From an uncultured virus (IMG/VR IMGVR_UViG_3300044637_001305) (taxonomy: Duplodnaviria > Heunggongvirae > Uroviricota > Caudoviricetes): a stretch of DNA of 64,000 nt. Numbering within the stretch: position 1 is the stretch's first letter; each line of letters begins with the position of its first letter. The notes under the pieces were generated by a model that searched no databases, was not told where the DNA came from, and saw only the letters and a list, made by a program, of their open reading frames with translations. Positions 4,434 through 64,000 of the stretch are shown piece by piece. Where the stretch lies: IMG/VR virus record IMGVR_UViG_3300044637_001305; one strand, 5' to 3'. Made by a program: the position numbers and the translations under genes.

Positions 4434-4817
4434 ATGAAAAGAATTTTTTTAACTGAAGAAGAAAAAGACGACCTATCAAAAAAACATGAAGATATTGACA
4501 GAAAACTTATGAACTTTCTTTTAAGAAGGTATAATGTAGAAAAAAGAACATTACCAAAAACTCCTTTTTTTGATCCCGATGACGACGATTTGCCACCAAT
4601 TAGTTGGACTGAAGTTAATTTTGTGGATTTTCCTGGATATGGACTTTCAAGTTATATGAGTAGAAAAGATATGGAGTGGAGATTACTTAATATGTTAGAA
4701 GAGGCCGAAAAACTTAATACTGATGATTTCAGAGGTAATAGAGGATTTGATGCTGATAGACAAAAAAAGATGAAAACAATAAGAACATTTTTAAATTTTG
4801 TATTACCTGTAAAATGA
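4434..4817 (+). CDS. Hypothetical protein with MKRIFLTEEEK leader
   Basis: TATTTAT 4423-4429; leader resembles those at 35042, 38180 and 62949. Confidence 0.7.
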   Translation: MKRIFLTEEEKDDLSKKHEDIDRKLMNFLLRRYNVEKRTLPKTPFFDPDDDDLPPISWTEVNFVDFPGYGLSSYMSRKDMEWRLLNMLEEAEKLNTDDFRGNRGFDADRQKKMKTIRTFLNFVLPVK

Positions 4818-5215
4818 AAATAGAAGAAAATATCAAAATAAAAAAATTACTTATTAATATGTTTGAAAACCAAGAGTTTGAAACAACATATCAAGATGAG
4901 GTAACTTCATGGAATGAAGAAAATTTTTATGAAGATTACGTTTTCAAGTATTATATAGAGGTAGGTAAAGTGTTAGGTGAAGGAACAATGACCGTTGCTT
5001 CTATTAACATTATTATAACTGAATTCACCGTTGATGGTGAAGATAAGATGTTAATTTGGAAAGAAGATAATTATGACGAACATCTTTGGTATATAGTAAC
5101 ATTAGAAAATGAAATATATGAAGATAAATTAAAAGATATTCCAATATCAACTTATCTAACTTGTTATGCTGAAGATGAATATGAAAATTTACCTTTTGAA
5201 CAAAAAAACTTATAA
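4814..5215 (+). CDS. Acidic hypothetical protein
   Basis: ATGA overlap with the upstream gene. Confidence 0.7.
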   Translation: MKIEENIKIKKLLINMFENQEFETTYQDEVTSWNEENFYEDYVFKYYIEVGKVLGEGTMTVASINIIITEFTVDGEDKMLIWKEDNYDEHLWYIVTLENEIYEDKLKDIPISTYLTCYAEDEYENLPFEQKNL

Positions 5216-5232
5216 TTAAATCAAAAAATATT

Positions 5233-5586
5233 ATGGCACATCCAATTCTACACGCAAAAAGTTCTGCCAAAAAGTTTGGAGGAATTTGGGAAGATTATAT
5301 TCATCTACATAATTGGCTTGACGAAACCAAAGGATGGTACGGACATTCGTATCATAGAATGTGGAGACACCACTCAGAAGGGATATTTGAGATGGAACAA
5401 AGGTTTGGTCCTGAGTTTAAAAATAGTGACGGGAAAACCGTTTATACTCGTTATGTTGGTGAACAACATGTAAAAGAAGACTGTGATGGATACATACCAT
5501 CAGCCAAAGAATGGTTCATGATTGTTGAAAATAAACAACGACCTATATGGGCAACTAAAACTCAAAAGTTAGAGTTTGAAGATTAG
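5233..5586 (+). CDS. DUF6915-like protein
   Basis: MAHP..HA.SS.KKFGG, HNWLD, HR..RHH.EGIF..E..FG and GEQHV.ED pattern. Confidence 0.7.
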   Translation: MAHPILHAKSSAKKFGGIWEDYIHLHNWLDETKGWYGHSYHRMWRHHSEGIFEMEQRFGPEFKNSDGKTVYTRYVGEQHVKEDCDGYIPSAKEWFMIVENKQRPIWATKTQKLEFED

Positions 5587-5600
5587 AAGTATTTATAGTT

Positions 5601-6351: not shown

Positions 6352-7116
6352 ATGAAAACAATAAAATTAACTGAGGAACAAAAACAAAAACTAGTAAGAC
6401 CAAATGGTTATATTGCTGCAGTATTTGGCGATGGAATAGAATGGAGTGTATATTGTTATTCCGACTATGGATTAGAGATGGATCAATTAAATGGACCATT
6501 ACCTGCGGGAGATAACGGATGGGATAGAAGAAACGAACTTGATCGAATTGATAGAGATCCTGGTTTTGATATCATATGTGATACTGCAGAAAAAATTGTG
6601 AAAAATTCTGAAGATGACTTAGTTGATGAATTGTCTTGTGATGATTGTACAGGGAATGGTTATTTATATGTAAATTATGATGGAGAAACAATGACTTTTA
6701 CCACTAGAGTTGAAAAATATGTAAGAGATTCACAAGATAGTGAATACATGAAAACTTTTGATGAGTGGGCCAGTACACAACCACAATACCCATGGCAAAC
6801 TTTTACATACCTAAAAAAATTAAAAGATCCTAATTTTATTGAAGAATATAAAAATGAAGGTGAAAATGGTGTATTTGAATTAGTTTATAATGGTGGAGGA
6901 GATAGCGGACAATTTGATGAACCAATAGATATTCCAAGAGATATTGAATATTTGGGTTATGAAATAATAGATGTTTATCATAGTGGTTGGGAAAATAATG
7001 AAGGTGCTGATGGAAGAATTGTGATAGATTTTAATGAAAAAACAATATCACTTTATCACCAACATTATTATGAAGAATCTGAAGAAATAGAATTAGAAAA
7101 ATACCAATTTGTATAA
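6352..7116 (+). CDS. Acidic protein, DUF6878-like C-terminal domain
   Basis: YNGGGDSGQ...GWENNEGADGRIVIDF; N-terminal MKTIKLTEEQK leader. Confidence 0.6.
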   Translation: MKTIKLTEEQKQKLVRPNGYIAAVFGDGIEWSVYCYSDYGLEMDQLNGPLPAGDNGWDRRNELDRIDRDPGFDIICDTAEKIVKNSEDDLVDELSCDDCTGNGYLYVNYDGETMTFTTRVEKYVRDSQDSEYMKTFDEWASTQPQYPWQTFTYLKKLKDPNFIEEYKNEGENGVFELVYNGGGDSGQFDEPIDIPRDIEYLGYEIIDVYHSGWENNEGADGRIVIDFNEKTISLYHQHYYEESEEIELEKYQFV

Positions 7117-7994
7117 TGGAAAATTTACAAGAAAATATAAATAGAATTAAAGAATTGATGTTGGTTGAAAATGACGACCAACTTTCTTTATTTTCTAGTG
7201 ATGAAGGAAAACCAATAAACATCAACTCAGACGAATTTACAAAAAGATTTAAAGAAAAAGTTTATTTTATATTAAAAGATTTATATAAATCAAATTGGGA
7301 TAGCGATAGAAGTAGAGGACCTGGTGGAGGTGGAGGAGTTGTTGGTGTTCATACTGTTTTTGATTTATTAAATAAAAAAGGTTTGACAGATTATGATCCT
7401 GAAGGTGGCGATTGGTCAATACTAAATTACTTTGACACAAACCCACAAGTTAGAAGAACAATTGTTGGGTTATATGAAAAAGAAACAGGAAAAGTTTTAG
7501 ATAATACTAACGTATTAGAAGACTTTATTAAGTGGATGTCCACAAATAGAAATAAGTTATTTAAAGACGGATCAATACTTGATTCATTAATTGAAAAAAA
7601 TATTGAATCACTTTATCAAGGAGAATTAAATGAAAGAAAGGCTTATGATTATCTATCAAAAATATTAGAAAACTTACCTAATTGGAAATTAAAAGGAAGA
7701 TCGGTTCCTGGTTCAAAAACCGATAGAGACGGGGTTGATTTTGTTATGGAACATGTAAAAACAGGAAAGATGGCAAAGTTTCAAGTAAAACCTTTAGGTT
7801 ATTTTAAAAGGGTCGGTAAATTCTATAAAGTTAAAAGTTATAACATCAAAAATATAGATAAAAAACCTGTTGATTACTTTGTTTTTGCATCTAATGATCA
7901 AGAAGATGTATTTATATTTAAAAATGAGATTGGTAAATATACAATCTTAGATAAAGACACGGTTCAGTTTGAAGAACCACCAATTAAGTTTTAA
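7116..7994 (+). CDS. Leader-bearing protein, possible PD-(D/E)xK nuclease
   Basis: MENLQENINRIKELMLVE leader; DRDGVDF...KFQVK motif. Confidence 0.5.
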   Translation: MENLQENINRIKELMLVENDDQLSLFSSDEGKPININSDEFTKRFKEKVYFILKDLYKSNWDSDRSRGPGGGGGVVGVHTVFDLLNKKGLTDYDPEGGDWSILNYFDTNPQVRRTIVGLYEKETGKVLDNTNVLEDFIKWMSTNRNKLFKDGSILDSLIEKNIESLYQGELNERKAYDYLSKILENLPNWKLKGRSVPGSKTDRDGVDFVMEHVKTGKMAKFQVKPLGYFKRVGKFYKVKSYNIKNIDKKPVDYFVFASNDQEDVFIFKNEIGKYTILDKDTVQFEEPPIKF

Positions 7995-7997: not shown

Positions 7998-9026
7998 ATG
8001 AGTGACGCAGCAAGAGAACTATTAGATGAATTTAATGAAGGAAATTGGGATGAAGTTGGCTCGTATTTCAACGACGACTTTAGTTTATTTTTAGATTATT
8101 TAGAAAAAAATGGTTTAGAAGGAGAATTAGATTATGAAAGGGTTGACGACGAGTGGCAAAATATAATATTACTTCGTAAATTAGAAAAATACCCTCAAGA
8201 AACATTAAAATATATTTGTGATAATATAATTACAGACGTTTATCCAATGGAAGATGGGTATTATCTGCATTTAAACGATAGGACAGAATTGGCCGATTTA
8301 TTTAAAACATATGGTAGAGACACTTCACCGTATGATGTTGCAAGGGCTGTTTTAGGTGAAGATTATTGGGAACCTTATTGGGACACAACTGATGACGTTT
8401 ATAGAGATGTTATTGATGATTTAAATGAGGAAAATAAAAATCATTTAGCAAATTATATTGTAAAAAATATTGGAGATCAAGAACTACCACTTGATGATTA
8501 TGAAGACGCACTATTTCACCAATTTTCAGAAGAACAAGGAACTGAAGGTGTTTTTAAAATAACAAGTGAAAATGTAATGAAATTTATTAAGGATGAAGAA
8601 GCAATGAAAGAAATGTTCAGAAAAGACCTTGATGAATTAAAAAGTGAATTATATTCCATTCATAATAATGCATATAACGGAGCATATACTGATGAAATAT
8701 ATAATAATGTTTGGAATGAACTTTCAGGATATTTTGAACCAAAATCATGGAAATACAATGAAAAAGAAAGATATGATGGTAAAAAAATCCAACAAGAGTA
8801 TATTAAAATAAATGATTTTTATAGTGATATTTATACATTTTTAAGTGAAAATGAAGATAAACAGTATAGTGATCAGTCATTAGGATATTGGGGATCATAT
8901 ACTGGGTTTGTTTCAAATATGATGGATAATGGTGAAAGGGATTGGTTATCTTTTAGAATACCCGATTATCCTGATTGGACAAGAATTAAAAAGAACATAA
9001 ATGATATTTTTGTTGATTATATCTAA
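7998..9026 (+). CDS. Highly acidic hypothetical protein
   Basis: 342-aa ORF rich in D, E, Y and W. Confidence 0.75.
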   Translation: MSDAARELLDEFNEGNWDEVGSYFNDDFSLFLDYLEKNGLEGELDYERVDDEWQNIILLRKLEKYPQETLKYICDNIITDVYPMEDGYYLHLNDRTELADLFKTYGRDTSPYDVARAVLGEDYWEPYWDTTDDVYRDVIDDLNEENKNHLANYIVKNIGDQELPLDDYEDALFHQFSEEQGTEGVFKITSENVMKFIKDEEAMKEMFRKDLDELKSELYSIHNNAYNGAYTDEIYNNVWNELSGYFEPKSWKYNEKERYDGKKIQQEYIKINDFYSDIYTFLSENEDKQYSDQSLGYWGSYTGFVSNMMDNGERDWLSFRIPDYPDWTRIKKNINDIFVDYI

Positions 9027-10057
9027 TGAAAGTAATAATAACACAAAAACAACTTCAACAAATTAGAGAAAACGCATCTAAAAAATTTAGTTGTGAGGGT
9101 AAGAATTGTGAACATTCTTGGGAGATAGAAAAAAAAGACGAACATCCCTATCTATGTCATATGTGTGGTTATGATTCTGCAAAAGAAAAACATAACTACG
9201 ACGAACTTGAAAACTTTTGGAAGAACTATAAAAAAGAAGAAGAGGTTACAGAAAAGTGGTCAGAGAAATATAAAAAAAGTATTAACTGTAGTAACCCAAA
9301 AGGTTTTTCTCAAAGAGCACATTGTCAAGGAAGAAAAAAGAATTTAAAAGAAGAATTTGAAAAAGAACAATTATTCAAAGAAGTTATTGAAAGAGATGTG
9401 AATGAATATGCATCAAACTATGAGTGGTGTGATGGAATAGAAATTGACATAAGAGAAACTAATTGGTTAACTGAAAAACAAAAACCTGTTTATGAATACA
9501 AAATAAAATTCAAAAACACTTCAATGGTTAGTTATAAAGAACAAGAAAATTTGTTTGATGATATTATGTTTGTTCATACCATGTATTTTCCTATAGAAGA
9601 AAGTGATGTTGATTGTTACATGTCAGTAAAATCAGTTTACCCTAATGGTGATGAAGGAGCATTTCCTTATAGTTATGATAATTATAATGAACAAATAACA
9701 GAATCGGAAGAAAAAGAAGATAAACTAAAAATAAGTGGTTACGACTTAGATAAAATAAAACAAGCCCTTCAAATGTTATCTCAAGTTTCTGAATCTGTTG
9801 GAGAATTTGTTCCATTAGAATTTAAACTTTATGGGTATCAGTTAAGAACCAACGATTTTGGTAAAAGACTAGATCTATATATTGATGTTGATAAAGATGG
9901 TGATGTTTATAATACTATGAGTAGAATTTGGTATGAAATAGGGCAGCAGTTATTAGAAATATTTCAAATGTTAGGGATTAGAGATGAAAGATATATGAAA
10001 CCTATGTATGATTTTAAATTTAATAAAAGACCACTATATAATATTGAAACTGTTTGA
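9026..10057 (+). CDS. Modular leader-bearing protein (Zn ribbon + KWSEKY micro-domain + two acidic modules)
   Basis: MKVIITQKQL leader; CEGKNC...HPYLCHMCGYD; KWSEKYKKSINCSNPKGFSQRAHC; modules bounded by IRE, VTE, LKE and ITE. Confidence 0.75.
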   Translation: MKVIITQKQLQQIRENASKKFSCEGKNCEHSWEIEKKDEHPYLCHMCGYDSAKEKHNYDELENFWKNYKKEEEVTEKWSEKYKKSINCSNPKGFSQRAHCQGRKKNLKEEFEKEQLFKEVIERDVNEYASNYEWCDGIEIDIRETNWLTEKQKPVYEYKIKFKNTSMVSYKEQENLFDDIMFVHTMYFPIEESDVDCYMSVKSVYPNGDEGAFPYSYDNYNEQITESEEKEDKLKISGYDLDKIKQALQMLSQVSESVGEFVPLEFKLYGYQLRTNDFGKRLDLYIDVDKDGDVYNTMSRIWYEIGQQLLEIFQMLGIRDERYMKPMYDFKFNKRPLYNIETV

Positions 10058-10442: not shown

Positions 10443-11954
10443 ATGGAGTTTAAAAAACGTGATTTATTGGTAGAAGACAATAGTGAAGAGGGAATCTTTA
10501 AAAAAGTGATGTCTAAATTAAAAGACGTTAAAGATAGGGCGCAATCCGAAATAAAAGAAACAAGAGCGTTAGTTAGAATATTAACTCACGCAGTAAAATC
10601 ATACGCAAAAGATAGAGAATTTGATTTAAACAAGGAAGATAAAGATTTTATCAAAGGACAATCCGCCGATGTTATAAGAACATTAGTTTTAACTATTGTT
10701 GCTATAATACCAATACCAATTCCATTAACACCATTTCTAATTATATTTGGAAAAAAAATCGGAATAGATTTAACACCAAAAGAACAAGTGATACCTGATA
10801 AAGGAAAACCAAAAAAAGATAAGATAGAAGAATCAAAAAAATTAAACATTATAATATCGGAAGAACAATATAATATTTTAAACGAAGTTGTTAAACCAAA
10901 AAATATTATATTATCGCTTTGTAAAAGACAAAAAGAACGAAACATATATTGTGATTTATATGATTTTTATTTAACTCTTGATCCTGAAAATACACAACCG
11001 ACTTTAGAGGCCACAATTGAAGAATTAAACGACTATTTTAAATACAAAAAAGTTGGTATGTTTCCAATACTTGTTAAATTAGCTCTTCAGAATAAAGAAA
11101 AAACTGTATCATATTTAAAACTGATTTCTGAATTTATAGATAGAAAACAATTTGATAAGACAGAAACAAAAAGAATAATAAACAAACAAAGAAACAGGAC
11201 GGATATTTCAGTTAAAGATGTTGAACAATTGGCTAAAGATGCCAGAAGATTAGAACATCAAAAATATGAAGAAAGGTTTCACGGAGACTATTTCAAAAAG
11301 AAATCAACATTTTTAAGACTAAATTATTCTTGTGATGATGATGTTAAAGAGAGTTTGTTCAATATTCTTACAAGAGTTGGCTCAAAAGAAAGGACAATAG
11401 ATGAAGTTTTTGAACAAGTAAAAAGATGTATTTTACAAACATTTGATAAAGGAATATATTATGTCAAGGCGGATTTAGAATCCACATCAAATTTTGTTTG
11501 TAGTGGAGAAACAATTTTTAATGCCGGCAGCAACTTTGAGGTTAAAAAAATGGATCCATTTGTTGATAGTTATTTATCTGAATTTTTATCAATCTTCAAA
11601 GAAACAGAAAAAATTCAATTTAAAGGAGAATACATAGGAATTTATAATGAGTTAATTCAAAGATTATATGAATGGCTTATTTCTTCAGAAGAGGCTAATG
11701 CGTATATAGAAAAGGTGAAGTCTCAAATAACAGGAATCATTTACGAAAATGATATAATAGTTCCAATACAATATATAGATTTATACTGGTCTAATAAAGG
11801 TCAAAGAGGTTGTGACGAAAAAAGATTGTCAATAAGATTTAAAATAAAAAATGATGTGGGGAGTGAAATACAAACATATAGATTTATTAATAGTAACGAA
11901 TTATCGCTCGTAACTAAAAAAGTCTCAACATCACAAAAAATAGTTTGCCCATGA
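10443..11954 (+). CDS. Two-module protein with an internal leader copy
   Basis: TATTTAT 10432-38; hydrophobic segment IVAIIPIPIPLTPFLII; internal LNIIISEEQYNILNE at 10842-10886. Confidence 0.75.
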   Translation: MEFKKRDLLVEDNSEEGIFKKVMSKLKDVKDRAQSEIKETRALVRILTHAVKSYAKDREFDLNKEDKDFIKGQSADVIRTLVLTIVAIIPIPIPLTPFLIIFGKKIGIDLTPKEQVIPDKGKPKKDKIEESKKLNIIISEEQYNILNEVVKPKNIILSLCKRQKERNIYCDLYDFYLTLDPENTQPTLEATIEELNDYFKYKKVGMFPILVKLALQNKEKTVSYLKLISEFIDRKQFDKTETKRIINKQRNRTDISVKDVEQLAKDARRLEHQKYEERFHGDYFKKKSTFLRLNYSCDDDVKESLFNILTRVGSKERTIDEVFEQVKRCILQTFDKGIYYVKADLESTSNFVCSGETIFNAGSNFEVKKMDPFVDSYLSEFLSIFKETEKIQFKGEYIGIYNELIQRLYEWLISSEEANAYIEKVKSQITGIIYENDIIVPIQYIDLYWSNKGQRGCDEKRLSIRFKIKNDVGSEIQTYRFINSNELSLVTKKVSTSQKIVCP

Positions 11955-12919
11955 AAATAATATTAACTGAAACACAATATAAAAATTTGATGGAGGGATT
12001 AGCTGATGATGATGTATTCAGAGACACCATTAAAGGTTATGAATCTACAGTTACGGATTCAAGTGGACAACATTATACTTTTGATGATAAAGACCCAAAA
12101 AATCCGAAGACTTTTGTTAAATCATCTGCAGATAAAAAAGGTGGAACATTAACAATTGGTTGGGGACATACAGGGGAAACCGCAAAACCAGGTAAAAAAA
12201 TATCAAATAGTAATGCTGAAGAATTATTAACAAGTGATATAACAAAAGAAGAAAATAAGGCAAAAACAATTTTTCCTAAGTATACTTCATATCCACTATA
12301 TGTACAAAGAGCGTTAGTAAATGCCGTTTATAGGGGAGAAGCGAAAAGTACATATGAATGGGTTAAGTCGGTAAATTCGGGTAAATGGATTACCGCGGCA
12401 AAAGAATATTTAGAAGGTTGGGACATTGATTTTTCTCAAGCAAATAATCCAAAATATAAAGGGGGCGTTGCCGACAGAATGGTTACTAACCAAAAAGCCT
12501 TTGAAAAATACGGAGAAGAATTAAAAAAAGGTAAAACAACCACGACCACCACAAAAAAAGAAACCACCACAACTGAATTAACATATTCAACAGAAGGTAT
12601 AAGTTATATAATGTTAGAAAACGAATTGGCGAGTTTAACTGCCGGAAAGAAATACAAAGTTCACCGATTCCCTAAAGATAGTTTTTTTGATTTTAGATTA
12701 GAAGTTGGTCCATACCCACCATCAAAAAAAGAAGGTAGGTATTTAGTTTTTTTTAGAAATGGTGTTATTAAATGGTATAATGGAAATGAATTCTCAGGAA
12801 GAGGTAGTTGGGGATATAATATAGATCAGAATAAATGGAGAATAATAGGTAAAAATGGAGAAATAAGTTTATCTACCGCTATCAATAATCCCGTTAATAA
12901 TTTTGCAAACGTAGCATAA
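11951..12919 (+). CDS. Leader-bearing phage lysozyme (GH24-like) with C-terminal extension
   Basis: MKIILTETQYKNLME leader; IKGYE...GTLTIGWGH; Thr-rich linker; ATG at 11951 overlaps the upstream TGA. Confidence 0.7.
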   Translation: MKIILTETQYKNLMEGLADDDVFRDTIKGYESTVTDSSGQHYTFDDKDPKNPKTFVKSSADKKGGTLTIGWGHTGETAKPGKKISNSNAEELLTSDITKEENKAKTIFPKYTSYPLYVQRALVNAVYRGEAKSTYEWVKSVNSGKWITAAKEYLEGWDIDFSQANNPKYKGGVADRMVTNQKAFEKYGEELKKGKTTTTTTKKETTTTELTYSTEGISYIMLENELASLTAGKKYKVHRFPKDSFFDFRLEVGPYPPSKKEGRYLVFFRNGVIKWYNGNEFSGRGSWGYNIDQNKWRIIGKNGEISLSTAINNPVNNFANVA

Positions 12920-13489
12920 ATGAAAGTAATACTAACTGAAGCACAATATAGAAGACTCACTGAGGAAAACCTTAGAGAGTTTTTGTATTCATTTTGGGAC
13001 AACCAAAAAAGACAAGGTGAAGACCCATCTTTAGATGACATTATATTTCAGGTTACCAACATTATAAAAGGTAGTAGCGATGACCACAGAACAATTAGAC
13101 CAATATGGTATGAATATAATGGAGGGTATGATGTGTTACTAAAAAAAATAGATGAAGAATTTTTAAATAAAGAGTTTCATTTAGAGGGTAGTGAAAATCT
13201 TAAAATGGATTTCAAAATTGATGGTATTGAATCATATGGTGAAGACGTATATGGTGGAATGGTTGACATTATTTGTCAAATATTGGATGGAACTGTTGAT
13301 GGAAACTTTTATAATCAAGAAACTGAAGAGATGGAAATGGTTCCTAACATGTATATTGGAGATCAATACGCCGAATTAGAATACGATACAGGAGATTTTG
13401 AAACTTTTTTAAGAGACGAGATACAAAGTTTTTTGGATCCCATAATGGAAAGGTATGGAATACCTTATCATCTTGAAATGCTTGTATAA
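12920..13489 (+). CDS. Leader-bearing acidic protein
   Basis: MKVILTEAQYRRLTE leader; distant paralog of 13489. Confidence 0.75.
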   Translation: MKVILTEAQYRRLTEENLREFLYSFWDNQKRQGEDPSLDDIIFQVTNIIKGSSDDHRTIRPIWYEYNGGYDVLLKKIDEEFLNKEFHLEGSENLKMDFKIDGIESYGEDVYGGMVDIICQILDGTVDGNFYNQETEEMEMVPNMYIGDQYAELEYDTGDFETFLRDEIQSFLDPIMERYGIPYHLEMLV

Positions 13490-52381: not shown

Positions 52382-52690
52382 ATGAATGAATTATTTGAAA
52401 ATATAAATAGAATAAAGAAATTGATGGAGTTAGAAAAAGACAAAGTTGAGGAATTTGAAATAAAAGAAGATGAGGATGGAGGTGGAGATGATGGAGGATC
52501 AGCAGCATCATCAGGTGGAGGATACCCAACAGTTAAAAAACACTCAGAAACATACCCAACTAAAAGGGGTAAAGCAAATACTTTAGACATGAAAACCAAG
52601 TGGGAAAGTGGTGTTACTAGAGGTAAAGCAAATAAAATAGATAACTCAAAATGGGAAAGTGGTAGAACAATGGGATCTACCGGTCCTTAA
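52382..52690 (+). CDS. Leader-bearing protein with RGKAN/KWESG repeats
   Basis: TATTTAT 52371-77; MNELFENINRIKKLMELE leader; T.RGKAN...KWESG twice. Confidence 0.75.
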   Translation: MNELFENINRIKKLMELEKDKVEEFEIKEDEDGGGDDGGSAASSGGGYPTVKKHSETYPTKRGKANTLDMKTKWESGVTRGKANKIDNSKWESGRTMGSTGP

Positions 52691-52697
52691 ATTTATA

Positions 52698-55600
52698 ATG
52701 ATGAACAACAATAAAAAAATATTATTAGAAATAAGTAGAATTAGGCAAATGATGGGTTTAGGTTCCGTTATATCTGAAGGACCTGAAAGCTATTGTCCTT
52801 TTTGTGTTGAATTTTTTAGTCAAATAAGTAAAATACTTAGTCAGGCTTCAAAAATTGGTGACGACGTTAATGTAACAAAACAACTAGAAGATATAAGATC
52901 AAAAATTGATAGTTCAGGACTGAATTTGAATCAAAAATCCGCATTAAAAAATATTTTAGATGATGTAATGCTTGAGTATAAAGGCACAAAAAGTATTACA
53001 AAATTACAAGATGATATAAAATTAAAAATTAAAAATGATGCACTATCTGACGTTGTACAACCTAACGTTATTGTTAAAAATATTATTGACACAGATCTAA
53101 TATTAAAAGACATTAATTTTGCAACAGAATTATTTGATTCAGGATTCAAACATAAAACATATAAATCTAATGTTGAATCATTCCTTGATACTGTAATTGA
53201 GTTCGCAAATAAAAATAAAAAATCAGATGTATCATTAAAAGACGCAACAATTGCAGAACTTGATTCTTTTATTCGTGGAAAATATGCTACCGACGGATTG
53301 GATGCAACATTAATTGATAATTTGATGGTTAAATGGAAAGATTGGTTTGAAACTTTAGAAAAAATTAAATCTATTTCTGGTAATTCTACAATTTTTTATA
53401 AAAGTGCTGATGATAGAACTATACCTATACGTTTTGGTAAAAACTATGAAAGTTTAGCGGATGAATATAATTCAGCTTTAAAAATGAATGAGGTTGATGA
53501 ACATTTTATAAAACCATTGAGTTACGATGAGGGTAAGGGGTATAGTATGGAAAACTTTTCAGATTCTAAAACTTTACGAGATTATTTAGATGGGGGTGAA
53601 AAAATAACTCAAGATATTGCAGATAAGATTAAAAATGCGGTTAACTCAATACACGAAAAGGGTCTATGTCATGGCGATTTAAATACTAATAATATATTAA
53701 TCAAATCTGATGGATCTGATTTCAGAATAATAGACCCTGTAGGATACCCATCAAAACAACAAGGTTTTACGGATTTTGATTTGGCTAAAGCTGATGATAT
53801 TTCAAGTTTGAATAACATAATAGATCAAAAAAATATAAAAATAGAAGAAAAAATAAAATCAAACAGTGATGTAAGGGCTCCCGGAATTGACGCTAATGGG
53901 TTTTTAAATTTAATTAATCAATTTGTGGAGTCTTCAGATCCTATAAAAAGAGTGACAATATTAAAATTTATTAATAAAACAACAGAACAAAAGGAGGTAT
54001 TGACTTCTTTCATAACTAAGTATTCTAATAATATTTCACAATCACAAAAAATAGTTAGTCTTGAGGATTTGTTTGATCCAAATAAATCAATTGAACTAAC
54101 GAACTTAGCAAAATCTATAGTTCAAAATAAACAAACAATAGTTACTCTTATTGACCCTCTATTAAATAAGGGTCGTTACCCAAAACTTTTTGACTTTAGT
54201 AAAAGTACAAACCCACAATTAATTGAAATACAATCTAAATTAGGGAGTGGGGAATTGAATGACGTGATTAAAAAAATTAATGAGGGTAAAACAAATGAGT
54301 TAACATACCAACAAATAGAAAAATTAAGCTCAGATTTAGAAAATATTAATAAATTAATAACAAATTCAGACACCAAAAAATATATAGACGATGTTGTAAA
54401 TGATTTAAAATTTTTATCTGAAGATGTTGTAAATGTTAAATTTCAAACAAATCGTATGACAAATGTTGCTGAAAAATTTGAAGTTAAACAAGTTAGTGGT
54501 GTAAAAATAAATAAAGAAGAATTAGAAAACATAAAAAGAATAGTAAATGAAAATGGTTATAAAGTTTGGGGTTGGAATATAAATGCTGACGAACCAATTT
54601 ATAAATTAGCTAAAGTAAATGGTGAAACAGTTAGATTTACTTTATCAGAATATGGACCTAGAAGATACGATGGAAATAGGGTATATGATGATAAAATATT
54701 TGAACAATTTCAAGATGAGTATTCCGATATTGTCACAAAAAATAATCAAATCGGAAACTATATGTCTTTTGAAGAATTTTTGAAAAATAAATTCAAAAAT
54801 AACCAAAAAATGATGGATTTATATTTTCCAAAATATAAAGTCCTTGGAGGTGTCAGAATGACTGACGATAGTGGAAATATTTGGGTCATTACAAATCCTG
54901 TCGGTGCAGGTGCAAAAAAAAATGTTGACTATGTTACTTTTCATGAAATGGCACATGTTGATCAAAAATCTGGAATTTATTCACCTATAGATGCTTATCG
55001 TATTAATGAATTTGAAACCCCTCAGAAAGCTTTAGAATATTTGGATAAAAAAATTCAAAGATCCTTTACACCAAAAAATGCTAAAACAGTTAAACTATAT
55101 GTTAATTGGGATGAGGTAACTAATGGAACAAAGGAAAGTGCTGAACTTATGGATAGGTACCTTAAAGAAACTGGAAACCCCAACCCCCTAACCCCACCAG
55201 GAGGTACCTATGTTTGGGCACATGGGGATATGTTTAATACTTGGGCTAAAAAAAACGAAGACACTATTGATGAAAAATATTTTAGGACAGGTGTAGAATC
55301 TCAAACAATAATTAAAAACCTATATAGTCCTGATGTTAAAAAAAGAACACTATTAATGACTTTAGAGGAGACAAGACAACATTATATAAAAAATAAACAA
55401 CCAACTGAACAAGTAGACAGATTAATAAGTAAAATAGAAAATTTGGATACTGAAAAATTAAATCTTTTTTTAAAAAATAATGTAGATGATCCATTATTAG
55501 GGTATAGTATTAAAAGATCTGCACATAAACTATCGTATTTTTTAAATATCCAAGAAATAGAGGCCGATTTTACTGCATTAATAAGAGAATTAATGGATAA

Positions 55601-59245: not shown

Positions 59246-62050
59246 ATGGAAAAACAAATATTAAATGAAATTGTAAGAATTAGACAAATGATGGGTTTAG
59301 GATCTGTTTTGTCTGAAGGACCTGAAAGCTATTGTCCTTTTTGTGTTGAATTTTTTAGTCAAATTAGTAAAATACTTGATCAAGCGGCAAAAATTGGAGA
59401 CGACGCTAATGTAACAAAACAACTAGAAGATATAAGATCAAAAATTGATAGTTCAGGACTCAATTTGAATCAAAAAGAAACACTAAAAAAGATTTTAGAT
59501 GATGTAACGCTTGAGTATAAAAACACAAAAAGTATTACAAAATTACAAGATGATATAAAATTAAAAATTAAAAATGAAGCATTATCTGATATTGTTCAGC
59601 CAAATGTCGTTGTTAAAAATATAGTTGATCCGGACATAATAATAAAAGATATTAATTTTGCAACAGAATTATTTGATTCAGGTGCAAAACATCAAACATA
59701 TAAAACTGAAATTGAAACAACCCTTGATACTGTAATTGAGTTCGCAAATAAAAATAAAAAATCAGATGTATCATTAAAAGACGCAACAATCGCAGAACTT
59801 GATTCTTTTATTCGTGAAAAATATGCCACCGATGGCTTGGATCCAGAATTAATTAATAATTTGATGCCAAAATGGAAAGAATGGATTGAAGGTTTGGAAA
59901 AAATTAAATCTATGGATCTTGGTAAAATTGAAAGAAGCATACCATATAAAGGTACCGATACTTTGGATGTAAAATATTCAAATAAATTTTTTGAAATAAT
60001 TAAAAAGACAGGTGACGATTTAACCGAAAGTGAATTGGCGTTCAAAAAACTTGTTGAGGATTGGAAGGCAGGTAAAGATATCACTGATGTGGATTTTGAA
60101 GCCGCTTTGAAAAAAATTGACGAGGATTCCGTTAAACCAAAGCCGGAAGATGAAGTTATTGACAATAATGTTACACAAAGTGATGATATTGTTGATCCCG
60201 TACCTGAAACAAATAATTTCTTTGATGTTTTTGCTAATGAAAGTTTAATAGATTCTGAGTTCATTTCAGAATTTCATAGGTTTAGAATGGTAGCTGGAAA
60301 TTCAGATAATGATTTCTACAAAAAATGTGTTAAAAATATTGAGGACGGTAAAAAATTGTCGTCAGCAGACATATTAAAATTAAACGACGAAATATTTAGT
60401 AAGTTTCCAAAGGTTAAAGATCGTTTATTAAACCCTAAGAAAACAAAACTCAATATATGGCAAACATTTTATTGGTCAACGGTTGAACCACTTGTAAGAC
60501 AGTACAGAGCACTTTGGAGACAGGGCGATACTAAATTTGAAAAAATGGCAAGAGAATCGGTCAACGAGTCAGGTGAACAAATTTATAAAGAAGGGGCTAA
60601 TTTTACATTTTATGCGGATGAATTTCTTAAAAAACTTGAGGGAGCTATAACATTTAGTGAAAACATAACAGGGGCACAAATAAAACAATTAAAAGATCGT
60701 TTTGTTAGATTGTCTGCAAATAATAGTGAAACTTATAGGATTTATTATGATAAATTATGGAAAGATTTAGATGAGTATTTGAATAATAATTTAGATTCTG
60801 CCGCAAAAAATAATTGGAACAAACTAAAAGAAAAAATCGCAACAGAAAAGGAAAGTAATTGGAGATATCTTACTTGGTCTGAAATTACGGGTGACCCTTC
60901 TCTAATTAAAAAGGCTCAAGAAATTTTAGATAAAGAAAAGGCTCTTAAAACTGGAATCAGAAAAGAGTTGGGAAATATTGATAATTATATAAATGCTGCT
61001 ATATCATATGTTATGAGAAAGTTTGGCGGTAACATTATAAGTTATTTTATAACAGGTAATTTTAGAACACCTAGACAAATGATGGAATATATGGTTAAAA
61101 ACGGGTATCAAAAATCAGGAGTTGGTTGGTTAAAATTGAGTGCTGAGGCTTCAAATTATATGCAAATGAAACTTTTCAAATATCTGTATCTACCGGTTAT
61201 TGCCAGTTTAGGGATTTACATATCAAGTTTATTATCATCGACAGTCACTTTAACCGGTGATGAGATAAGTTTTCTTGAAACTTTTTGGGGTCAACTAACA
61301 GGAAAAGATGATGGGGGATTAGAAAAAACCATTAAGTCTATTGGAGGTTTTATTTGGGACGATTTTTCCAAATATTCTCCTGAGTGGTATAAATGGTACA
61401 AAGAATATGGTATTTCTATGCCTCTTTCACCAGCAGGTAAATCACTCGTTTATTTAACGGCAATTGCACAATCAGACCTACCAACACAACAACAAAGACA
61501 AGAAGAGGCTGAAACCAAAACATTCAACGAAGTAAATAAAAAATTGGAAACTAATTGGGATAACGCAACCCCTGAACAACAACAAAAAGCAAGGTCTGAA
61601 TCGGCATATGCAAAACTAAGAGGTGGTTTAAGTGAATATAAATACCCCGATTTGACTGCAGATGAACAAAAGTTAATATACAGTAGATTGTCGTTTGAAC
61701 CCGGTATAACAAGAGACGAAAATTTTGATTCTTTAATTCAAGACAAAGAAAATGTATTAAAGGATAGTGCTGAAAAAGTGGCGTTAGGTCAATTTGATCC
61801 TAAATCAATTAATGTTAAAGCAATAAAAGGTTATGGTTTAATTGAAGGTAAAAGCGGAAATAAATATAAAGTGGTTCCTGTTTTTAGAAATAATGACCCG
61901 TATTCTTTATATGGAAAAACATCAGACCCGAATATAAAAGATTATTGGGCTTGGTTGAAGCCACCACATGACGAGATAACAAGTAAAGATTCCGTCCAAC
62001 CATTTAGTATGAAGCAATTCATAGAAGAATATAATACAGGTAAAAATTAA
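59246..62050 (+). CDS. Large leader-bearing protein, N-terminally paralogous to 52698
   Basis: TATTTAT 59222-28; MEKQILNEIVRIRQMMGLGSVLSE leader; hydrophobic segment YLYLPVIASLGIYISSLL. Confidence 0.75.
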   Translation: MEKQILNEIVRIRQMMGLGSVLSEGPESYCPFCVEFFSQISKILDQAAKIGDDANVTKQLEDIRSKIDSSGLNLNQKETLKKILDDVTLEYKNTKSITKLQDDIKLKIKNEALSDIVQPNVVVKNIVDPDIIIKDINFATELFDSGAKHQTYKTEIETTLDTVIEFANKNKKSDVSLKDATIAELDSFIREKYATDGLDPELINNLMPKWKEWIEGLEKIKSMDLGKIERSIPYKGTDTLDVKYSNKFFEIIKKTGDDLTESELAFKKLVEDWKAGKDITDVDFEAALKKIDEDSVKPKPEDEVIDNNVTQSDDIVDPVPETNNFFDVFANESLIDSEFISEFHRFRMVAGNSDNDFYKKCVKNIEDGKKLSSADILKLNDEIFSKFPKVKDRLLNPKKTKLNIWQTFYWSTVEPLVRQYRALWRQGDTKFEKMARESVNESGEQIYKEGANFTFYADEFLKKLEGAITFSENITGAQIKQLKDRFVRLSANNSETYRIYYDKLWKDLDEYLNNNLDSAAKNNWNKLKEKIATEKESNWRYLTWSEITGDPSLIKKAQEILDKEKALKTGIRKELGNIDNYINAAISYVMRKFGGNIISYFITGNFRTPRQMMEYMVKNGYQKSGVGWLKLSAEASNYMQMKLFKYLYLPVIASLGIYISSLLSSTVTLTGDEISFLETFWGQLTGKDDGGLEKTIKSIGGFIWDDFSKYSPEWYKWYKEYGISMPLSPAGKSLVYLTAIAQSDLPTQQQRQEEAETKTFNEVNKKLETNWDNATPEQQQKARSESAYAKLRGGLSEYKYPDLTADEQKLIYSRLSFEPGITRDENFDSLIQDKENVLKDSAEKVALGQFDPKSINVKAIKGYGLIEGKSGNKYKVVPVFRNNDPYSLYGKTSDPNIKDYWAWLKPPHDEITSKDSVQPFSMKQFIEEYNTGKN
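59276..59913 (+). repeat. 638-bp duplicated 5' gene segment, copy 2
   Basis: Colinear with 52737-53374. Confidence 0.9.
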
Positions 62051-62055
62051 AAAAA

Positions 62056-62922
62056 ATGAGTAAAAGATTTGACGAAGACAATTTTAAACATTGGAAGGAT
62101 ACTTTCAAGTTTCAATCGTATGACGATGAAAATGGTGAATATAAAGACGTAAAAATCAAAATGGAAGACGTAATGGACAGAATAGATCATTACAGAAAAA
62201 AATATGATGAGGATGATTCTTTTGTAAGGGCGGTGGTTGATACCCACGAAGACGTGGTAAAAATCATGTTTACTAAAGATTTGGCACATCTTACCGAATC
62301 TGTAGAGTTACATGGTCTTGTTAAAATTTTACAAAACATAAGTGAAAGTAGAGGTGAAATGGAAATTTGGTCAGTTGCTAGACCGGCAGACGGAAACTGG
62401 TTTTTAGTGAAGGGTTCTTTTAATAAAAGACAGTTAGCGAACATGGATTTACACAAAAAAGATAGACCTGATAAAGAAACTGAACATAGAGAAAAACCCG
62501 AACAAGGGTTAAAAAAAAAAGAGGAAAGCGCAATACAAACACTAAAAACTAACGAAGAGCAAGGTTTAAAATTACTACCTGTTAAAATACAACAAAAAGT
62601 TAAAGAAAAAATGGCAAAGGGTTGGACGACAGAAACACCCTACCAATTCTTTAATGAATTTTACGATGAAAGTGAAATAAATTCAGTTTTCAATGAAAAG
62701 ATTAAAATTTTCAAACTGAAACCTACTCACGAATTTTTTAACAAATTAAAAGAAAATTCTGCTAAAATTTCTTTAAAAAGAGGTTTTTGTAGATCAATAT
62801 ATTTATCCAAAAATGATTCAGACATTAATCAAGAACAAGAAAAAGTAGTAAAACATATCTTAACAAGATGTGACCAAAAGTTTGAGGGTAAAATAGGAAT
62901 TTATAGATCGGAACCGAATTAA
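62056..62922 (+). CDS. Hypothetical protein
   Basis: 288-aa ORF. Confidence 0.7.
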   Translation: MSKRFDEDNFKHWKDTFKFQSYDDENGEYKDVKIKMEDVMDRIDHYRKKYDEDDSFVRAVVDTHEDVVKIMFTKDLAHLTESVELHGLVKILQNISESRGEMEIWSVARPADGNWFLVKGSFNKRQLANMDLHKKDRPDKETEHREKPEQGLKKKEESAIQTLKTNEEQGLKLLPVKIQQKVKEKMAKGWTTETPYQFFNEFYDESEINSVFNEKIKIFKLKPTHEFFNKLKENSAKISLKRGFCRSIYLSKNDSDINQEQEKVVKHILTRCDQKFEGKIGIYRSEPN

Positions 62923-62948
62923 ATAAAATTATCAAATATTTATTGTAA

Positions 62949-64000
62949 ATGAAAAAGAGTTTACAAATAAGTGAGGAAGAAAAAAGAACTATTCTCATAA
63001 AATATAATTTATTAGAAGATTCTAAAAAAGAACCTAAAATAAAATCAATATCTTGTTTAAAGGATGACCCAAATGGTGCAACTGCGTCTGATTGTACTAT
63101 CGTTTATAAAAATGGTAATAAATTTGAAGGTCGTTTAAAAAATGGATTTCCTGAATTAGGTAAGTTTACATTTTCTGACGGGCACTTTTATGAAGGTTCA
63201 TTTGCTGGTACTACAAGTCATAGTAAGATTCATTATTCGGGTGATGCTATGGATGCAAACCGAAGAAGGGTTGTTAACACAGAAGATTTATTGTTGTATC
63301 ATGAAGAAAATTACGATCCGGAAGAGGTTATTGACCCAACAGACAATGAAGAAATAGAACAGACAAATACTGATGGTGACAAAGTAGTTTACGACGAAAA
63401 AGAAAAAAAAGTTATTATTCCTGCAAGTATAAAATCAAAATGGAAAGGTTGTGGCACACAGGATAAAGATTTCTATTTTGATGGTACTATGGGTTCAACC
63501 GATTTAGGTTATTTGTTGGAACCACCTGAGATGGGTAACGCAAAATATGAAGGTACTTTAGAATTAGAAGAAGTCTTATTTGGTAAGACGATTAAATTCA
63601 CAGGTTGTTTTGATAAAAACAATATGATTTATGGTGAAGAGTCTGGTGGAAGAGGTAATTTTGAAGGATACTATTATACTGAAGATGTAAGTAAAAAATT
63701 TTTTAGTGGTGATGTAGGTAAAGCCAACAAATTCATGTATGGTAAATTATCTAATAACTATGACTATGAATTTTATAATGCAGTATGGGCCTACACTGGT
63801 TTTTTTGTTAATGGTAAAATAGACGGTACCTCAACTGAAATACCTGCAGGTTTTGATGAAACTAAATTTGGATCAATATTGTTTGGTGATAATAATCGGT
63901 ATGACGGAGACTTTAAAGGGGGTAAAATAGAAGGTAAAGGTGTTTTCTATTTTTCAGACGGTATGAAACTTGAGGGTGATTTTAAAACCGAAGAGGCTGA
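62949..64000 (+). CDS. Leader-bearing MORN-repeat protein (runs off the window end; absent from the ORF track)
   Basis: TATTTAT 62937-43; MKKSLQISEEEKRTILIKYNLLE leader; YKNGNKFEG.LKNG...GKFTFSDG..YEG.F and YDGDFKGGKIEGKGVFYFSDG. Confidence 0.8.
   Translation, partial: MKKSLQISEEEKRTILIKYNLLEDSKKEPKIKSISCLKDDPNGATASDCTIVYKNGNKFEGRLKNGFPELGKFTFSDGHFYEGSFAGTTSHSKIHYSGDAMDANRRRVVNTEDLLLYHEENYDPEEVIDPTDNEEIEQTNTDGDKVVYDEKEKKVIIPASIKSKWKGCGTQDKDFYFDGTMGSTDLGYLLEPPEMGNAKYEGTLELEEVLFGKTIKFTGCFDKNNMIYGEESGGRGNFEGYYYTEDVSKKFFSGDVGKANKFMYGKLSNNYDYEFYNAVWAYTGFFVNGKIDGTSTEIPAGFDETKFGSILFGDNNRYDGDFKGGKIEGKGVFYFSDGMKLEGDFKTEEA

What the first reader, a model, noticed from the sequence alone, without database searches (positions are those of the whole stretch)
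4434..64000. Window-wide leader-peptide system: ~35 unrelated proteins share short N-terminal tags with (I/L/V)-x-E motifs, a candidate capsid-targeting/cargo-loading code
SEEN: three leader classes head proteins whose bodies are otherwise unrelated. Class A, MK(I/V)I(I/L)T(E/Q)xQ(Y/F/L/H)..L.E: 9026, 11951, 12920, 13489, 14037, 14441, 14824, 31436, 32861, 42996, with variants at 4434, 6352, 28614, 35042, 38180, 44010, 49679, 62949. Class B, L.E.I.R(I/M)K.(L/M)M: 7116, 22353, 25189, 32206, 33712, 39514, 50512, 52382, 52698, 59246. Class C, I(R/K)KILKEE: 17553, 17959, 18355, 20800, 21246, 21902, 25514, 46526(-). Most leaders end in an (I/L/V)-x-E tripeptide (LME, LTE, ILE, LQE, LVE, LNE, LSE, LKE). 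KNOWN: T4 internal proteins carry a 10-aa capsid-targeting sequence (MKTYQEFIAE) that prohead protease gp21 removes by cutting after (I/L)-x-E; phiKZ-type proteases also cut after Glu. INFERENCE: this phage uses interchangeable tags to load dozens of different proteins into the prohead, which are then matured by proteolysis and probably ejected into the host. That would be far more cargo than T4's three IPs.
Basis: partly seen in the sequence, partly recalled or inferred. Interest (0 to 1): 0.92.

Follow-up and report, generated by a model that had tools for sequence, protein, structure and literature searches.

The report
Shared address tags on phage proteins
About a third of the genes in this piece of an uncultured giant bacterial virus begin with one of a few short shared peptides, which most likely work like phage T4's "load into the head, then cut off" tag, although no experiment has tested this.

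Summary
In the window and two relatives, 103 matches sit at N-termini, 4 elsewhere, about 0 in shuffles. There are five classes, not three. Selection acts on the peptide, not the DNA. The tags head unrelated bodies and are swapped between classes on homologous bodies, with the joint right after hydrophobic-x-Glu.

The window is part of an uncultured T4-type jumbo myovirus, probably of Bacteroidota. Four of four near-complete tag-bearing relatives encode a T4 gp21-family prohead protease. Their capsid protein has (L/I)-x-E sites crowded in its N-terminal 60 residues, as T4 gp23 does. Tag genes share the TATTTAT promoter motif with head genes. The tag is virus-restricted and is the least confident part of two AlphaFold models.

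Best reading (about 0.55): T4-like capsid-targeting propeptides on an unusually large cargo set. Nothing shows packaging or cleavage, and the tags have no sequence similarity to T4's. This scan noted the same leader earlier on other DNA.

The parts
4434..4493 (+). class E leader (MKRIFLTEEEKDDLSKKH) of a 127-aa protein
6352..6411 (+). weak A/E-like N-terminus (MKTIKLTEEQKQKL); fails the strict patterns
7116..7175 (+). class B leader (MENLQENINRIKELMLVEN)
9026..9085 (+). class A leader (MKVIITQKQLQQIRE), followed by a Cys-rich Zn-ribbon-like stretch
11951..12010 (+). class A leader on a GH24 lysozyme (322 aa)
12920..12979 (+). class A leader (MKVILTEAQYRRLTEE)
13489..13548 (+). class A leader (MKIIITERQYKILES)
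14037..14096 (+). class A leader (MKIIITESQYKMLLES)
14441..14500 (+). class A leader (MKIIITEYQYNLLQE|TFGRDRF); the homologous body in G002 carries a class C leader
14824..14883 (+). class A leader (MKIIITEEQFNKLQES) of a 203-aa protein; the leader is the best-conserved stretch among 46 orthologs
17553..17612 (+). weak C-like N-terminus (MRRLIKENEDKK)
17959..18018 (+). class C leader (MNRLIKKILKEEL)
18355..18414 (+). weak C-like N-terminus (MEILKKNILKEMEE); body related to that of 20800
20800..20859 (+). class C leader (MRDIIIKILKEET)
21246..21305 (+). class C leader (MKNLIRKILKEEV)
21902..21961 (+). class C leader (MNIQKHIRRIIKEEI)
22353..22412 (+). class B leader (MNLQEQISRMKSMM)
25189..25248 (+). 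class B leader (MNLQEQINRTKTLMGM), TATTTAT 11 nt upstream
25514..25573 (+). B/C hybrid leader (MDLQEHIRKVLREEI), TATTTAT upstream
28614..28673 (+). class D leader (MRNRLTESDFNRIVKKIVNE)
31436..31495 (+). class A leader (MKIIITESQHRTLLES)
32206..32265 (+). class B leader (MKKVLLEDIKRITSLM)
32861..32920 (+). class A leader (MKIIITESQLKQLTEM)
33712..33771 (+). class B leader (MQNLNEHINRMKQLF)
35042..35101 (+). class E leader (MRKILITESEKKRIINLY)
38180..38239 (+). class E leader (MKNRFVISENDRRSILSMYGLLTE)
39514..39573 (+). class B leader (MKNLRNELNEMKFLF)
42996..43055 (+). class A leader (MKIVITESQYQKLVEN)
44010..44069 (+). class D leader (MAKEILIKESDLIRMITKMVNE)
46467..46526 (-). weak C-like N-terminus (MPIKLLDILKKEISEQ) on a VanY/M15 peptidase (583 aa)
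49679..49738 (+). weak E-like N-terminus (MRGFVGLTSKEKEDILKKH)
50512..50571 (+). weak B-like N-terminus on a PG_binding_1 protein (516 aa)
52382..52441 (+). class B leader (MNELFENINRIKKLMELE)
52698..52757 (+). class B-type leader (…KILLEISRIRQMMGLGS) on a 1113-aa kinase-like protein, paralog of 59246
59246..59305 (+). class B leader (MEKQILNEIVRIRQMMGLGS) on a 934-aa protein
62949..63008 (+). class E leader (MKKSLQISEEEKRTILIKYNLLED) on a MORN-repeat protein (runs off the window)

Best explanation
The window is an accessory-gene region of an uncultured T4-type jumbo myovirus, probably infecting Bacteroidota. At least 29 of its roughly 91 genes start with one of five or more short peptide modules of about 15-22 residues. 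Each module has Met, a basic residue, a short hydrophobic stretch and an amphipathic helix, and ends in a hydrophobic-x-Glu triplet. I propose these are capsid-targeting propeptides, working like the T4 CTS. (1, inferred) The genes are transcribed late, from the same TATTTAT promoter as the head genes. (2, inferred) The tag docks the protein onto the scaffolding core of the assembling prohead. (3, inferred) The gp21-family prohead protease cuts after the Glu, which frees the body inside the head. (4, inferred) The cargo is ejected with the DNA. The cargo includes several peptidoglycan hydrolases and binders, P-loop kinases and many proteins of unknown family. What is shown here is the tags, their N-terminal restriction, peptide-level selection, modular swapping, their restriction to viral DNA, the protease and T4-type head module in relatives, and the shared promoter motif.
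For: Tags are real and confined to N-termini: 103 hits at N-termini against 4 elsewhere among 764 proteins, with shuffles at about 0; in the window's six frames 9/9, 8/8 and 4/4 at N-termini.

Selection is on the peptide. Ser8 uses both TCA and AGT and Leu13 uses five codons. Identical residues share a codon only 64% of the time, and the median identical nucleotide run is 10. In 46 orthologs of the 14824 protein, down to 34% identity, M1 K2 I3 I4 I5 T6 E7 Q9 F10 Q14 are invariant.

Tags are modular. The body of W14441 (class A, …NLLQE|TFGRDRF) is 68% identical to G002 47911 (class C, …KILLQE|TFGRDRW). G002 45539 (A, …LLSE|AVGVP) matches G004 197801 (C-like, …LLRE|AVGVP). G002 15424 (C) matches G004 152070 (B). 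In the first two pairs, where both leaders could be read against the body, the joint falls right after the phi-x-E.

Unrelated Pfam bodies carry tags: GH24 lysozyme, VanY, Hydrolase_2, PG_binding_1 (5 proteins), P-loop kinases and DUF2237. An untagged PG_binding+GH19 endolysin-type gene exists in G002, so the tagged hydrolases are extra.

Among 132 leader-A cluster representatives, 122 have [LIVMF]-x-E with the Glu at residue 14-16.

A Peptidase_S77 (T4 gp21) gene is present in 4 of 4 near-complete tag-bearing relatives (Pfam 83 bits), in a T4-type head module with a gp23-like capsid protein. That capsid protein has 4 of its 7 [LI]-x-E within its first 60 residues, including INE60 followed by AAS. 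T4 gp23 has 4 of 8 within 65 residues, including LTE65.

TATTTAT lies within 32 nt upstream of 27 of 70 tag genes and 3 of 9 PHROG-labelled structural genes, but 0 of 19 replication genes. It also precedes the protease, scaffold, terminase and portal genes. A host-type TTTG-N17-23-TAnnTTTG promoter precedes 0 of 70 tag genes.

The tag is virus-restricted. One genome from each of 185,579 prokaryote species gave 4 hits, all on 1.8-8 kb MAG contigs, 3 of them with TATTTAT upstream.

In AlphaFold2 models the tag is the least confident part: residues 1-10 average pLDDT 61 against 90 overall for the 14824 protein, and residues 1-14 are mostly below 50 in the lysozyme.

Precedent: the T4 internal proteins are diverse, with only the CTS conserved (PMC3012670, passage read). 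The CTS is 10-19 residues, and residues 8 and 10 govern processing (PMC9026906, section 2.6, passage read).
Against: No virion proteome, no neo-N-termini and no packaging assay exist for this clade.

No cultured member was found: 3 window proteins gave no tblastn match in GenBank phages. The nearest cultured capsid relative, Flavobacterium phage immuto, showed no tags in the 75 kb of its 160 kb that I examined.

The window's own genome is not held, and its closest relative G002 is incomplete and lacks head genes. The protease link therefore rests on more distant relatives.

The leader-A profile does not recognise T4 IPI, IPII or IPIII (scores of 1.9 bits or less).

Tagging a third of the genes in 64 kb is far beyond any known cargo set. 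A complete relative, G005, has only 13 tagged genes of 362, so the expansion here might have another cause.

In the 14824 model the proposed cut site (E15) lies inside one continuous helix, 7-32.

Phi-x-E is a common tripeptide in this Ile/Leu/Glu-rich proteome, and the scaffold itself shows no enrichment (9 observed, 8.3 expected).

Calling TATTTAT a late promoter is an inference from gene neighbourhoods.
Confidence: 0.55

Rival explanations
1. The tags are phage-specific docking peptides for some destination other than the capsid interior. Examples would be the tail or baseplate, a phage-built cytoplasmic assembly, or a phage-encoded chaperone or AAA+ machine. They might be neither cleaved nor ejected.
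For: Everything that shows a modular, virus-restricted, peptide-level tag fits any phage-encoded receptor equally well. These phages encode AAA ATPases, DnaJ and GroES/EL-type chaperones. There are five or more tag classes, which could mean several receptors. Internal and tandem tag copies occur in fusion proteins, so the tag does not have to be at the extreme N-terminus.
Against: This reading gives no reason why every class ends in hydrophobic-x-Glu at a fixed distance (122 of 132), or why swaps join exactly after the Glu. The only conserved, clade-specific partner set that co-occurs with the tags is the head module with an S77 protease. None of the annotated tail or baseplate proteins carries a tag.
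Confidence: 0.2
2. The tags are regulatory propeptides or degrons. They would keep harmful enzymes (lysozymes, kinases) inactive or short-lived in the producing cell and be recognised by a host or phage protease, without any packaging.
For: Several bodies are potentially self-harmful enzymes: GH24, Hydrolase_2, VanY and kinases. The tags are exposed, low-confidence N-terminal extensions.
Against: Most tagged bodies are small proteins with no enzyme signature: 58 of the 69 G002/G004 tagged proteins have no Pfam hit. The tag is absent from cellular genomes, so a host recognition system would have no native substrates. Co-expression with head genes is not explained.
Confidence: 0.1
3. The shared 5' ends are DNA-level cassettes, like the promoter/stem-loop elements (PeSLs) of T4-type phages. 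They would promote recombination and gene shuffling or help translation start, and the encoded peptide would be incidental.
For: Many tag genes sit behind a conserved TATTTAT element 4-5 nt from the ATG, some behind G/C-run hairpins. Same-class tag genes form tandem arrays. PeSL-mediated shuffling of ORFans is documented in RB49/phi1 (PMC2839356, passages read).
Against: Conservation is at the amino-acid level with free synonymous change, including TCA/AGT serine codons, and the median identical nucleotide run is only 10. Tags are equally present on translationally coupled internal genes that have no promoter. Structural genes behind the same promoter lack the peptides. Tags stay invariant across orthologs at 34% identity.
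Confidence: 0.05
4. All tagged genes are fast-diverging paralogs of one or a few ancestral genes, and only the N-terminus has stayed recognisable.
For: Tandem arrays of same-class genes occur, and some bodies are weakly related: 18355/20800, 22353/25189, 52698/59246.
Against: The bodies include unrelated Pfam families (GH24, VanY, Hydrolase_2, PG_binding_1, P-loop kinases, DUF2237). Homologous bodies carry different tag classes or no tag. At the same locus, the window has a GH24 body where G002 has a Hydrolase_2 body, behind the same tag.
Confidence: 0.05

Closest known systems
Phage T4 capsid targeting sequence (CTS) of internal proteins IPI, IPII, IPIII (and the Alt and gp24 propeptides), removed by prohead protease gp21
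   Same: A short N-terminal peptide is shared by otherwise unrelated proteins. It starts Met-Lys, carries an aromatic or hydrophobic pair, and ends in (L/I)-x-E. T4 ipII and ipIII read MKTYQEFIAE and ipI has ITE19. The phage clade has a gp21-family protease, a gp23-like capsid protein and a gp20-like portal. The genes lie outside the head module, in plastic accessory regions.
   Different: There is no detectable sequence similarity. The tags are longer, 15-22 residues. There are at least five tag classes instead of essentially one. There are 29 or more tagged genes in 64 kb, and 41 in relative G002, against three IPs plus a few others in T4. The cargo includes peptidoglycan hydrolases and proteins of up to 1113 residues. 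The host is probably Bacteroidota. Packaging and cleavage are untested.
Ejection and inner-body proteins of phiKZ, 201phi2-1 and SPN3US giant phages, processed by a gp21-related protease
   Same: Dozens of head-internal proteins are cut after Glu at a short motif. SPN3US paralogs gp53 and gp54 share an identical 15-residue N-terminus, which the authors likened to a CTS (PMC5694885, passages read).
   Different: Their motif is A/S/G-x-E, their propeptides are mostly longer than 100 residues, and they are not shared among unrelated proteins. Here the tags are short, hydrophobic-x-E, and interchangeable.
Encapsulin cargo-loading peptides
   Same: A short address peptide loads diverse cargo into an HK97-fold shell. 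This resemblance is recalled from memory, not tested.
   Different: Those peptides are usually C-terminal, are not cleaved, and belong to a cellular nanocompartment. No test was run here.
PeSL regulatory cassettes of T4-type hyperplastic regions (PMC2839356)
   Same: Repeated elements stand at the 5' borders of ORFan genes in plastic regions, with a promoter and nearby G/C hairpins.
   Different: PeSLs are intergenic DNA elements carrying early promoters. Here the repeated unit is a translated peptide under amino-acid-level selection, and its promoter motif is the one found on head genes.

Membership tests
T4-type capsid targeting sequence / internal-protein system | Short N-terminal peptide shared by otherwise unrelated proteins | tested here: met
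   103 N-terminal hits against 4 elsewhere, shuffles about 0; bodies mostly unrelated; unrelated Pfam domains; class swaps on homologous bodies.
T4-type capsid targeting sequence / internal-protein system | Peptide ends in the gp21 cleavage motif (L/I)-x-E | tested here: met
   This was tested at sequence level only. 122 of 132 leader-A representatives have [LIVMF]-x-E with the Glu at 14-16 (the profile itself favours this). Swap joints fall right after the Glu. Classes B to E also end in LxE, IKE or LYE. Actual cleavage is not testable here.
T4-type capsid targeting sequence / internal-protein system | The phage encodes a gp21-family (Peptidase_S77) prohead protease and a T4-type head module | tested here: met
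   Met in relatives only. PF03420 lies over its cut-off in 4 of 4 near-complete tag-bearing records (G001, G003, G004, G005). The module is conserved among them (protease 68-79% identical) and the capsid protein matches T4 gp23. The window's own genome is not held, and its nearest relative G002 is incomplete and has no head genes.
T4-type capsid targeting sequence / internal-protein system | Sequence similarity to the T4 CTS (MKTYQEFIAE) | tested here: not met
   The leader-A HMM scores T4 ipI, ipII and ipIII at -0.3 to -0.8 bits. The resemblance is one of architecture only.
T4-type capsid targeting sequence / internal-protein system | Co-expression with head assembly (late genes) | tested here: inconclusive
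   TATTTAT lies upstream of 27 of 70 tag genes, 3 of 9 structural genes and 0 of 19 replication genes, and upstream of the protease, scaffold, terminase and portal genes. Timing is inferred from this, not measured.
T4-type capsid targeting sequence / internal-protein system | Tagged proteins are present in the virion with the tag removed; the tag is sufficient to package a foreign protein | not testable with these tools
   This needs virion N-terminomics and tag-reporter packaging. No cultured member was found.
PeSL-type regulatory/recombination cassette | Conservation at the DNA level in intergenic sequence | tested here: not met
   The conserved unit is coding. Synonymous codons vary freely, and the median identical run is 10 nt.
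Host secretion or sorting signal | The signal is also used by cellular proteins of the host | tested here: not met
   The long leader-A pattern gave 4 hits among one genome from each of 185,579 prokaryote species. All are on tiny MAG contigs, and 3 of the 4 have the phage promoter motif upstream.

The most novel reading that the evidence does not exclude
A multi-class peptide address code, with at least five interchangeable tag types, routes a third or more of this jumbo phage's accessory proteome into the prohead. The particle would then deliver dozens of ready-made proteins at infection, including cell-wall enzymes, kinases and many unknowns. The different tag classes might sort cargo to different sites, copy numbers or ejection orders. 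This would be the largest and most modular virion cargo system known, and it is widespread in uncultured aquatic T4-type phages.
Probability: 0.3. Interest if true: 0.85.

Novelty: new variant of a known kind. Interest (0 to 1): 0.62.

Why it matters
If the tags load proteins into the head, this clade shows that the T4 trick of one tag with many cargos has been scaled up to dozens of proteins and several tag types in environmental giant phages. The tag would then label, from sequence alone, which "dark matter" genes are injected effectors, likely anti-defence and cell-entry factors. It would also give a portable set of short peptides for packaging foreign proteins into phage capsids. The proposal is directly testable: a recombinant protease with a tag-reporter fusion, or viral-fraction metaproteomes searched for N-termini that begin just after the Glu.

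Tried and rejected
Complex prediction (tag alignment A3 with the G004 core 235-aa protein and the N- and C-terminal parts of the scaffold). The queue was full, and the tool was withdrawn. Nothing was folded, so tag-scaffold binding remains untested.

The window's whole genome is not held. An exact 40-mer from the window's end was not found in IMG/VR or in JGI metagenome contigs.

GenBank phages. There was no nucleotide match for window 40000-60000 and no tblastn match for three window proteins. UvrC hits were uninformative.

No cultured model was found. Flavobacterium phage immuto (capsid protein 41% identical) showed no tags in the 75 kb of 160 kb that I examined. The other 85 kb were not checked.

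Literature. 'MKIIITE' gave 0 papers. Searches on capsid targeting, internal proteins, jumbo phages and metagenomes returned only T4, phiKZ/SPN3US and P1 work, and no description of this tag system. One hit (PMC13326640) merely cites Mullaney and Black.

The phi-x-E count in the scaffold is not enriched (9 against 8.3 expected), so scaffold degradation sites give no support.

Charge, size and Cys content of tagged and untagged proteins show no telling difference.

Rfam found nothing in the window. The GC-rich island at 28100-28560 does not fold better than shuffles (z -1.4). E. coli-type sigma-70 promoter matches are not enriched (130 against 124).

P0081, the top hit of the profile search, is an unrelated repetitive acidic protein and a false positive.

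Full report
WHAT THE WINDOW IS

The window has about 30% GC. Almost all long ORFs lie on the + strand, tightly packed or overlapping, without Shine-Dalgarno sequences. It has no tRNA and no Rfam family.

Pfam and PHROGs on 91 gene candidates found no virion genes. They found HAD phosphatases, thioredoxin, endonuclease VII, UvrC, FKBP, a T9SS CHU_C protein, a GH24 lysozyme, a VanY peptidase and a PG_binding_1 protein. Most genes have no family. GenBank phages hold nothing similar.

The IMG/VR record G002 (214 kb, 71% complete) is collinear with window 1-31449 at 68-96% nucleotide identity over the aligned blocks (most long blocks 70-85%). It is a myovirus. It has a tail sheath, tube, baseplate wedge and hub, UvsX, a gp32-like SSB, DnaB and its own sigma factor, but the contig ends before the head genes.

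I infer a Bacteroidota host from four things: the T9SS domain, the host-type TTTG…TAnnTTTG promoters, a Flavobacterium phage as the nearest cultured capsid relative, and MAG bins named Flavobacterium and Saprospiraceae.

THE OBSERVATION

In six-frame translation, K[IV][IV][IL]TE occurs 9 times, always at residue 2 after an ATG. The B and C patterns are 8 of 8 and 4 of 4 at N-termini.

I then used five patterns on 764 predicted proteins from the window, G002 and G004. There were 103 hits within the first 15 residues and 4 elsewhere, two of which are mis-called starts. Shuffled proteins give about 0.

The other 7 are weak look-alikes, except 52698, which shares its leader with its paralog 59246.

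- A: MKIIITExQYxxLxE
- B: MNLQEQIxRIKxxMGL
- C: xLIRKILKEE
- D: MKKIIRLTESDLxRIVKRVIKE
- E: RFIITEEEKKRILxLY/H

There are also B/C hybrids and further recurrent types.

PEPTIDE, NOT DNA

Codons under conserved residues vary freely: ATA/ATC/ATT; TCA and AGT for Ser8; five Leu codons at position 13. Identical residues use the same codon only 64% of the time, and the median in-register identical nucleotide run is 10.

Upstream DNA is not conserved for the translationally coupled genes.

In 46 orthologs of the 14824 protein, down to 34% identity, the leader holds 10 of the 23 invariant columns.

MODULARITY

Bodies are mostly unrelated by blastp. They carry unrelated Pfam domains: GH24, VanY, Hydrolase_2, PG_binding_1, P-loop kinases and DUF2237.

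Homologous bodies carry different tags:
- W14441 (A, …NLLQE|TFGRDRF) and G002 47911 (C, …KILLQE|TFGRDRW), 68% identical.
- G002 45539 (A, …LLSE|AVGVP) and G004 197801 (…KKLLRE|AVGVP).
- G002 15424 (C) and G004 152070 (B).

In the first two pairs, where both leaders could be read against the body, the joint is right after the hydrophobic-x-Glu.

At the collinear locus, the window has a GH24 body where G002 has a Hydrolase_2+PG_binding body, behind the same tag.

103 of 120 GH24 homologs match the strict A pattern. Most of the remaining 17 are variants, fragments or fusions with the upstream gene.

Fusion proteins keep internal or tandem tag copies.

DISTRIBUTION

92 of the 147 starts show the extended motif, and many have TATTTAT just upstream.

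A 32-column profile of leader A found 200 clusters at E ≤ 0.001 among 1.84 billion representatives. Of 148 examined, 132 start with the tag. The top hit, P0081, is an unrelated repetitive protein.

Among one genome from each of 185,579 prokaryote species, the long pattern hit 4 small MAG contigs, 3 of them carrying the phage promoter motif.

The load differs by lineage: 29 strict in this window, 41 in G002, and 13 of 362 genes in the complete 322-kb G005.

LINK TO HEAD ASSEMBLY

PF03420 (T4 gp21 protease) is present in 4 of 4 near-complete tag-bearing records.

Their head modules are closely related to one another: protease 68-79% identical, capsid protein 72-78%. They contain three small genes (235, 147 and 70 aa) with no BLAST match in the untagged immuto-type modules. 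This comparison covers only 4 genomes against 2 and is confounded by relatedness.

The capsid protein is gp23-like. It has 4 of its 7 [LI]-x-E in its first 60 residues (IKE23, LKE44, LYE51, INE60|AAS). T4 gp23 has 4 of 8 in its first 65 residues, including LTE65. T4 ipII and ipIII read MKTYQEFIAE, and ipI has ITE19.

The scaffold shows no enrichment of the motif.

TATTTAT is the most enriched upstream 7-mer, at 12-fold, with peaks at -11/-12 and at -20 to -23 from the ATG. It precedes 27 of 70 tag genes and 3 of 9 PHROG-labelled structural genes, but 0 of 19 replication genes. It also precedes the protease, scaffold, terminase, core and portal genes. Host-type promoters precede 15 genes, none of them tagged (0 of 70, p = 0.08).

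STRUCTURE MODELS

In the 14824 protein (pLDDT 90 overall), residues 1-10 average 61 and residues 11-20 average 70. A single helix spans 7-32.

In the lysozyme, residues 1-14 are mostly below 50, while the GH24 core is confident.

The tag therefore looks like an exposed extension.

READING

The best-supported explanation is a T4-CTS-like capsid-targeting propeptide system (0.55). The reasons are the phi-x-E ending, the exact swap boundary, the gp21-type protease and the shared head-gene promoter. The several tagged peptidoglycan enzymes beside an untagged endolysin-type gene also fit entry or ejection proteins.

The literature passages I read support the precedent. T4 internal proteins are diverse, with only the CTS conserved (PMC3012670). 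The CTS is 10-19 residues, with residues 4 and 7 governing targeting and 8 and 10 governing processing (PMC9026906, section 2.6). Giant phages cut head proteins after Glu (PMC5694885).

The rivals are: another phage-specific docking target (0.2), a propeptide or degron (0.1), a DNA cassette as in PMC2839356 (0.05), and diverged paralogs (0.05).

None of the decisive facts has been tested: presence in virions, removal of the tag, or ejection.

EARLIER NOTES AND NOVELTY

Earlier notes of this scan describe the same MKIIITE tag and similar tags on other DNA, with the same reading. Those notes are not independent evidence.

The principle is known from T4. What is new is the scale, the multiple interchangeable tag classes, the cargo types and the host group. 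I therefore rate it a new variant of a known kind. My literature searches found no description of it.

Noticed in passing
window, e.g. 25178-25188, 25503-25513, 42985-42995, 52371-52381; G002 and G004 throughout: A phage-specific promoter-like motif, (A/G)TATTTAT, ends only 4-5 nt before the ATG of many genes; a second spacing class sits at -20 to -23. This suggests leaderless or nearly leaderless late transcripts. It is the most enriched upstream 7-mer (12-fold) and also precedes the head genes.
   Followed up: partly
IMG/VR record G004 (L168-L181): 25-37 kb and 222-245 kb: One 269-kb contig holds two complete T4-type head modules (two S77 proteases, two portals, two gp23-like capsid genes, 27-47% identical to each other). 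The first 120 kb resembles Flavobacterium phage immuto and has no tags; all tags lie in 121-220 kb. This may be a chimeric assembly, even though CheckV rates it 100% complete.
   Followed up: partly
window 28100-28560: A GC-rich (42-45%) non-coding island in a 29% GC genome, conserved in G002 at 73% identity. It is full of G-run/C-run hairpins, including a clear terminator at 28180-28196. It has no Rfam family, and its fold is no better than shuffles (z -1.4).
   Followed up: partly
window 52698-56039 and 59246-62050 (also 56075-59173): Three neighbouring proteins of 930-1130 aa. Two are paralogs (54% identity over about 400 residues) with a class B tag, a CPFC motif and a weak protein-kinase-like stretch. 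Their function is unknown.
   Followed up: no
window 9026-10057 and many IMG/VR loci (e.g. L014, L019, L023, L030): A recurrent family in which leader A is followed directly by a Cys-rich stretch (…C..C.HSW…/…CDNCGW…) that looks like a zinc ribbon.
   Followed up: no
window 20150-20803: A HAD-domain protein carries an internal class C-like motif at residue 178 (…IESIKRILRQE|TELTEKCWKGY). The C-terminal piece after it is homologous to tagged proteins of G002 and G004, so this is probably a fusion with a tagged gene.
   Followed up: partly
G002 65993-68116 (L145:5993-8116): The phage relative encodes a 707-aa GAF-PAS histidine-kinase-like protein, with a small neighbour that looks like a response regulator. 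This is unusual cargo for a phage.
   Followed up: no
window 46623-48380: Three tandem genes encode signal-peptide proteins with PKD-like domains, one with a T9SS CHU_C sorting domain. These are host-type secreted proteins encoded by the phage.
   Followed up: no
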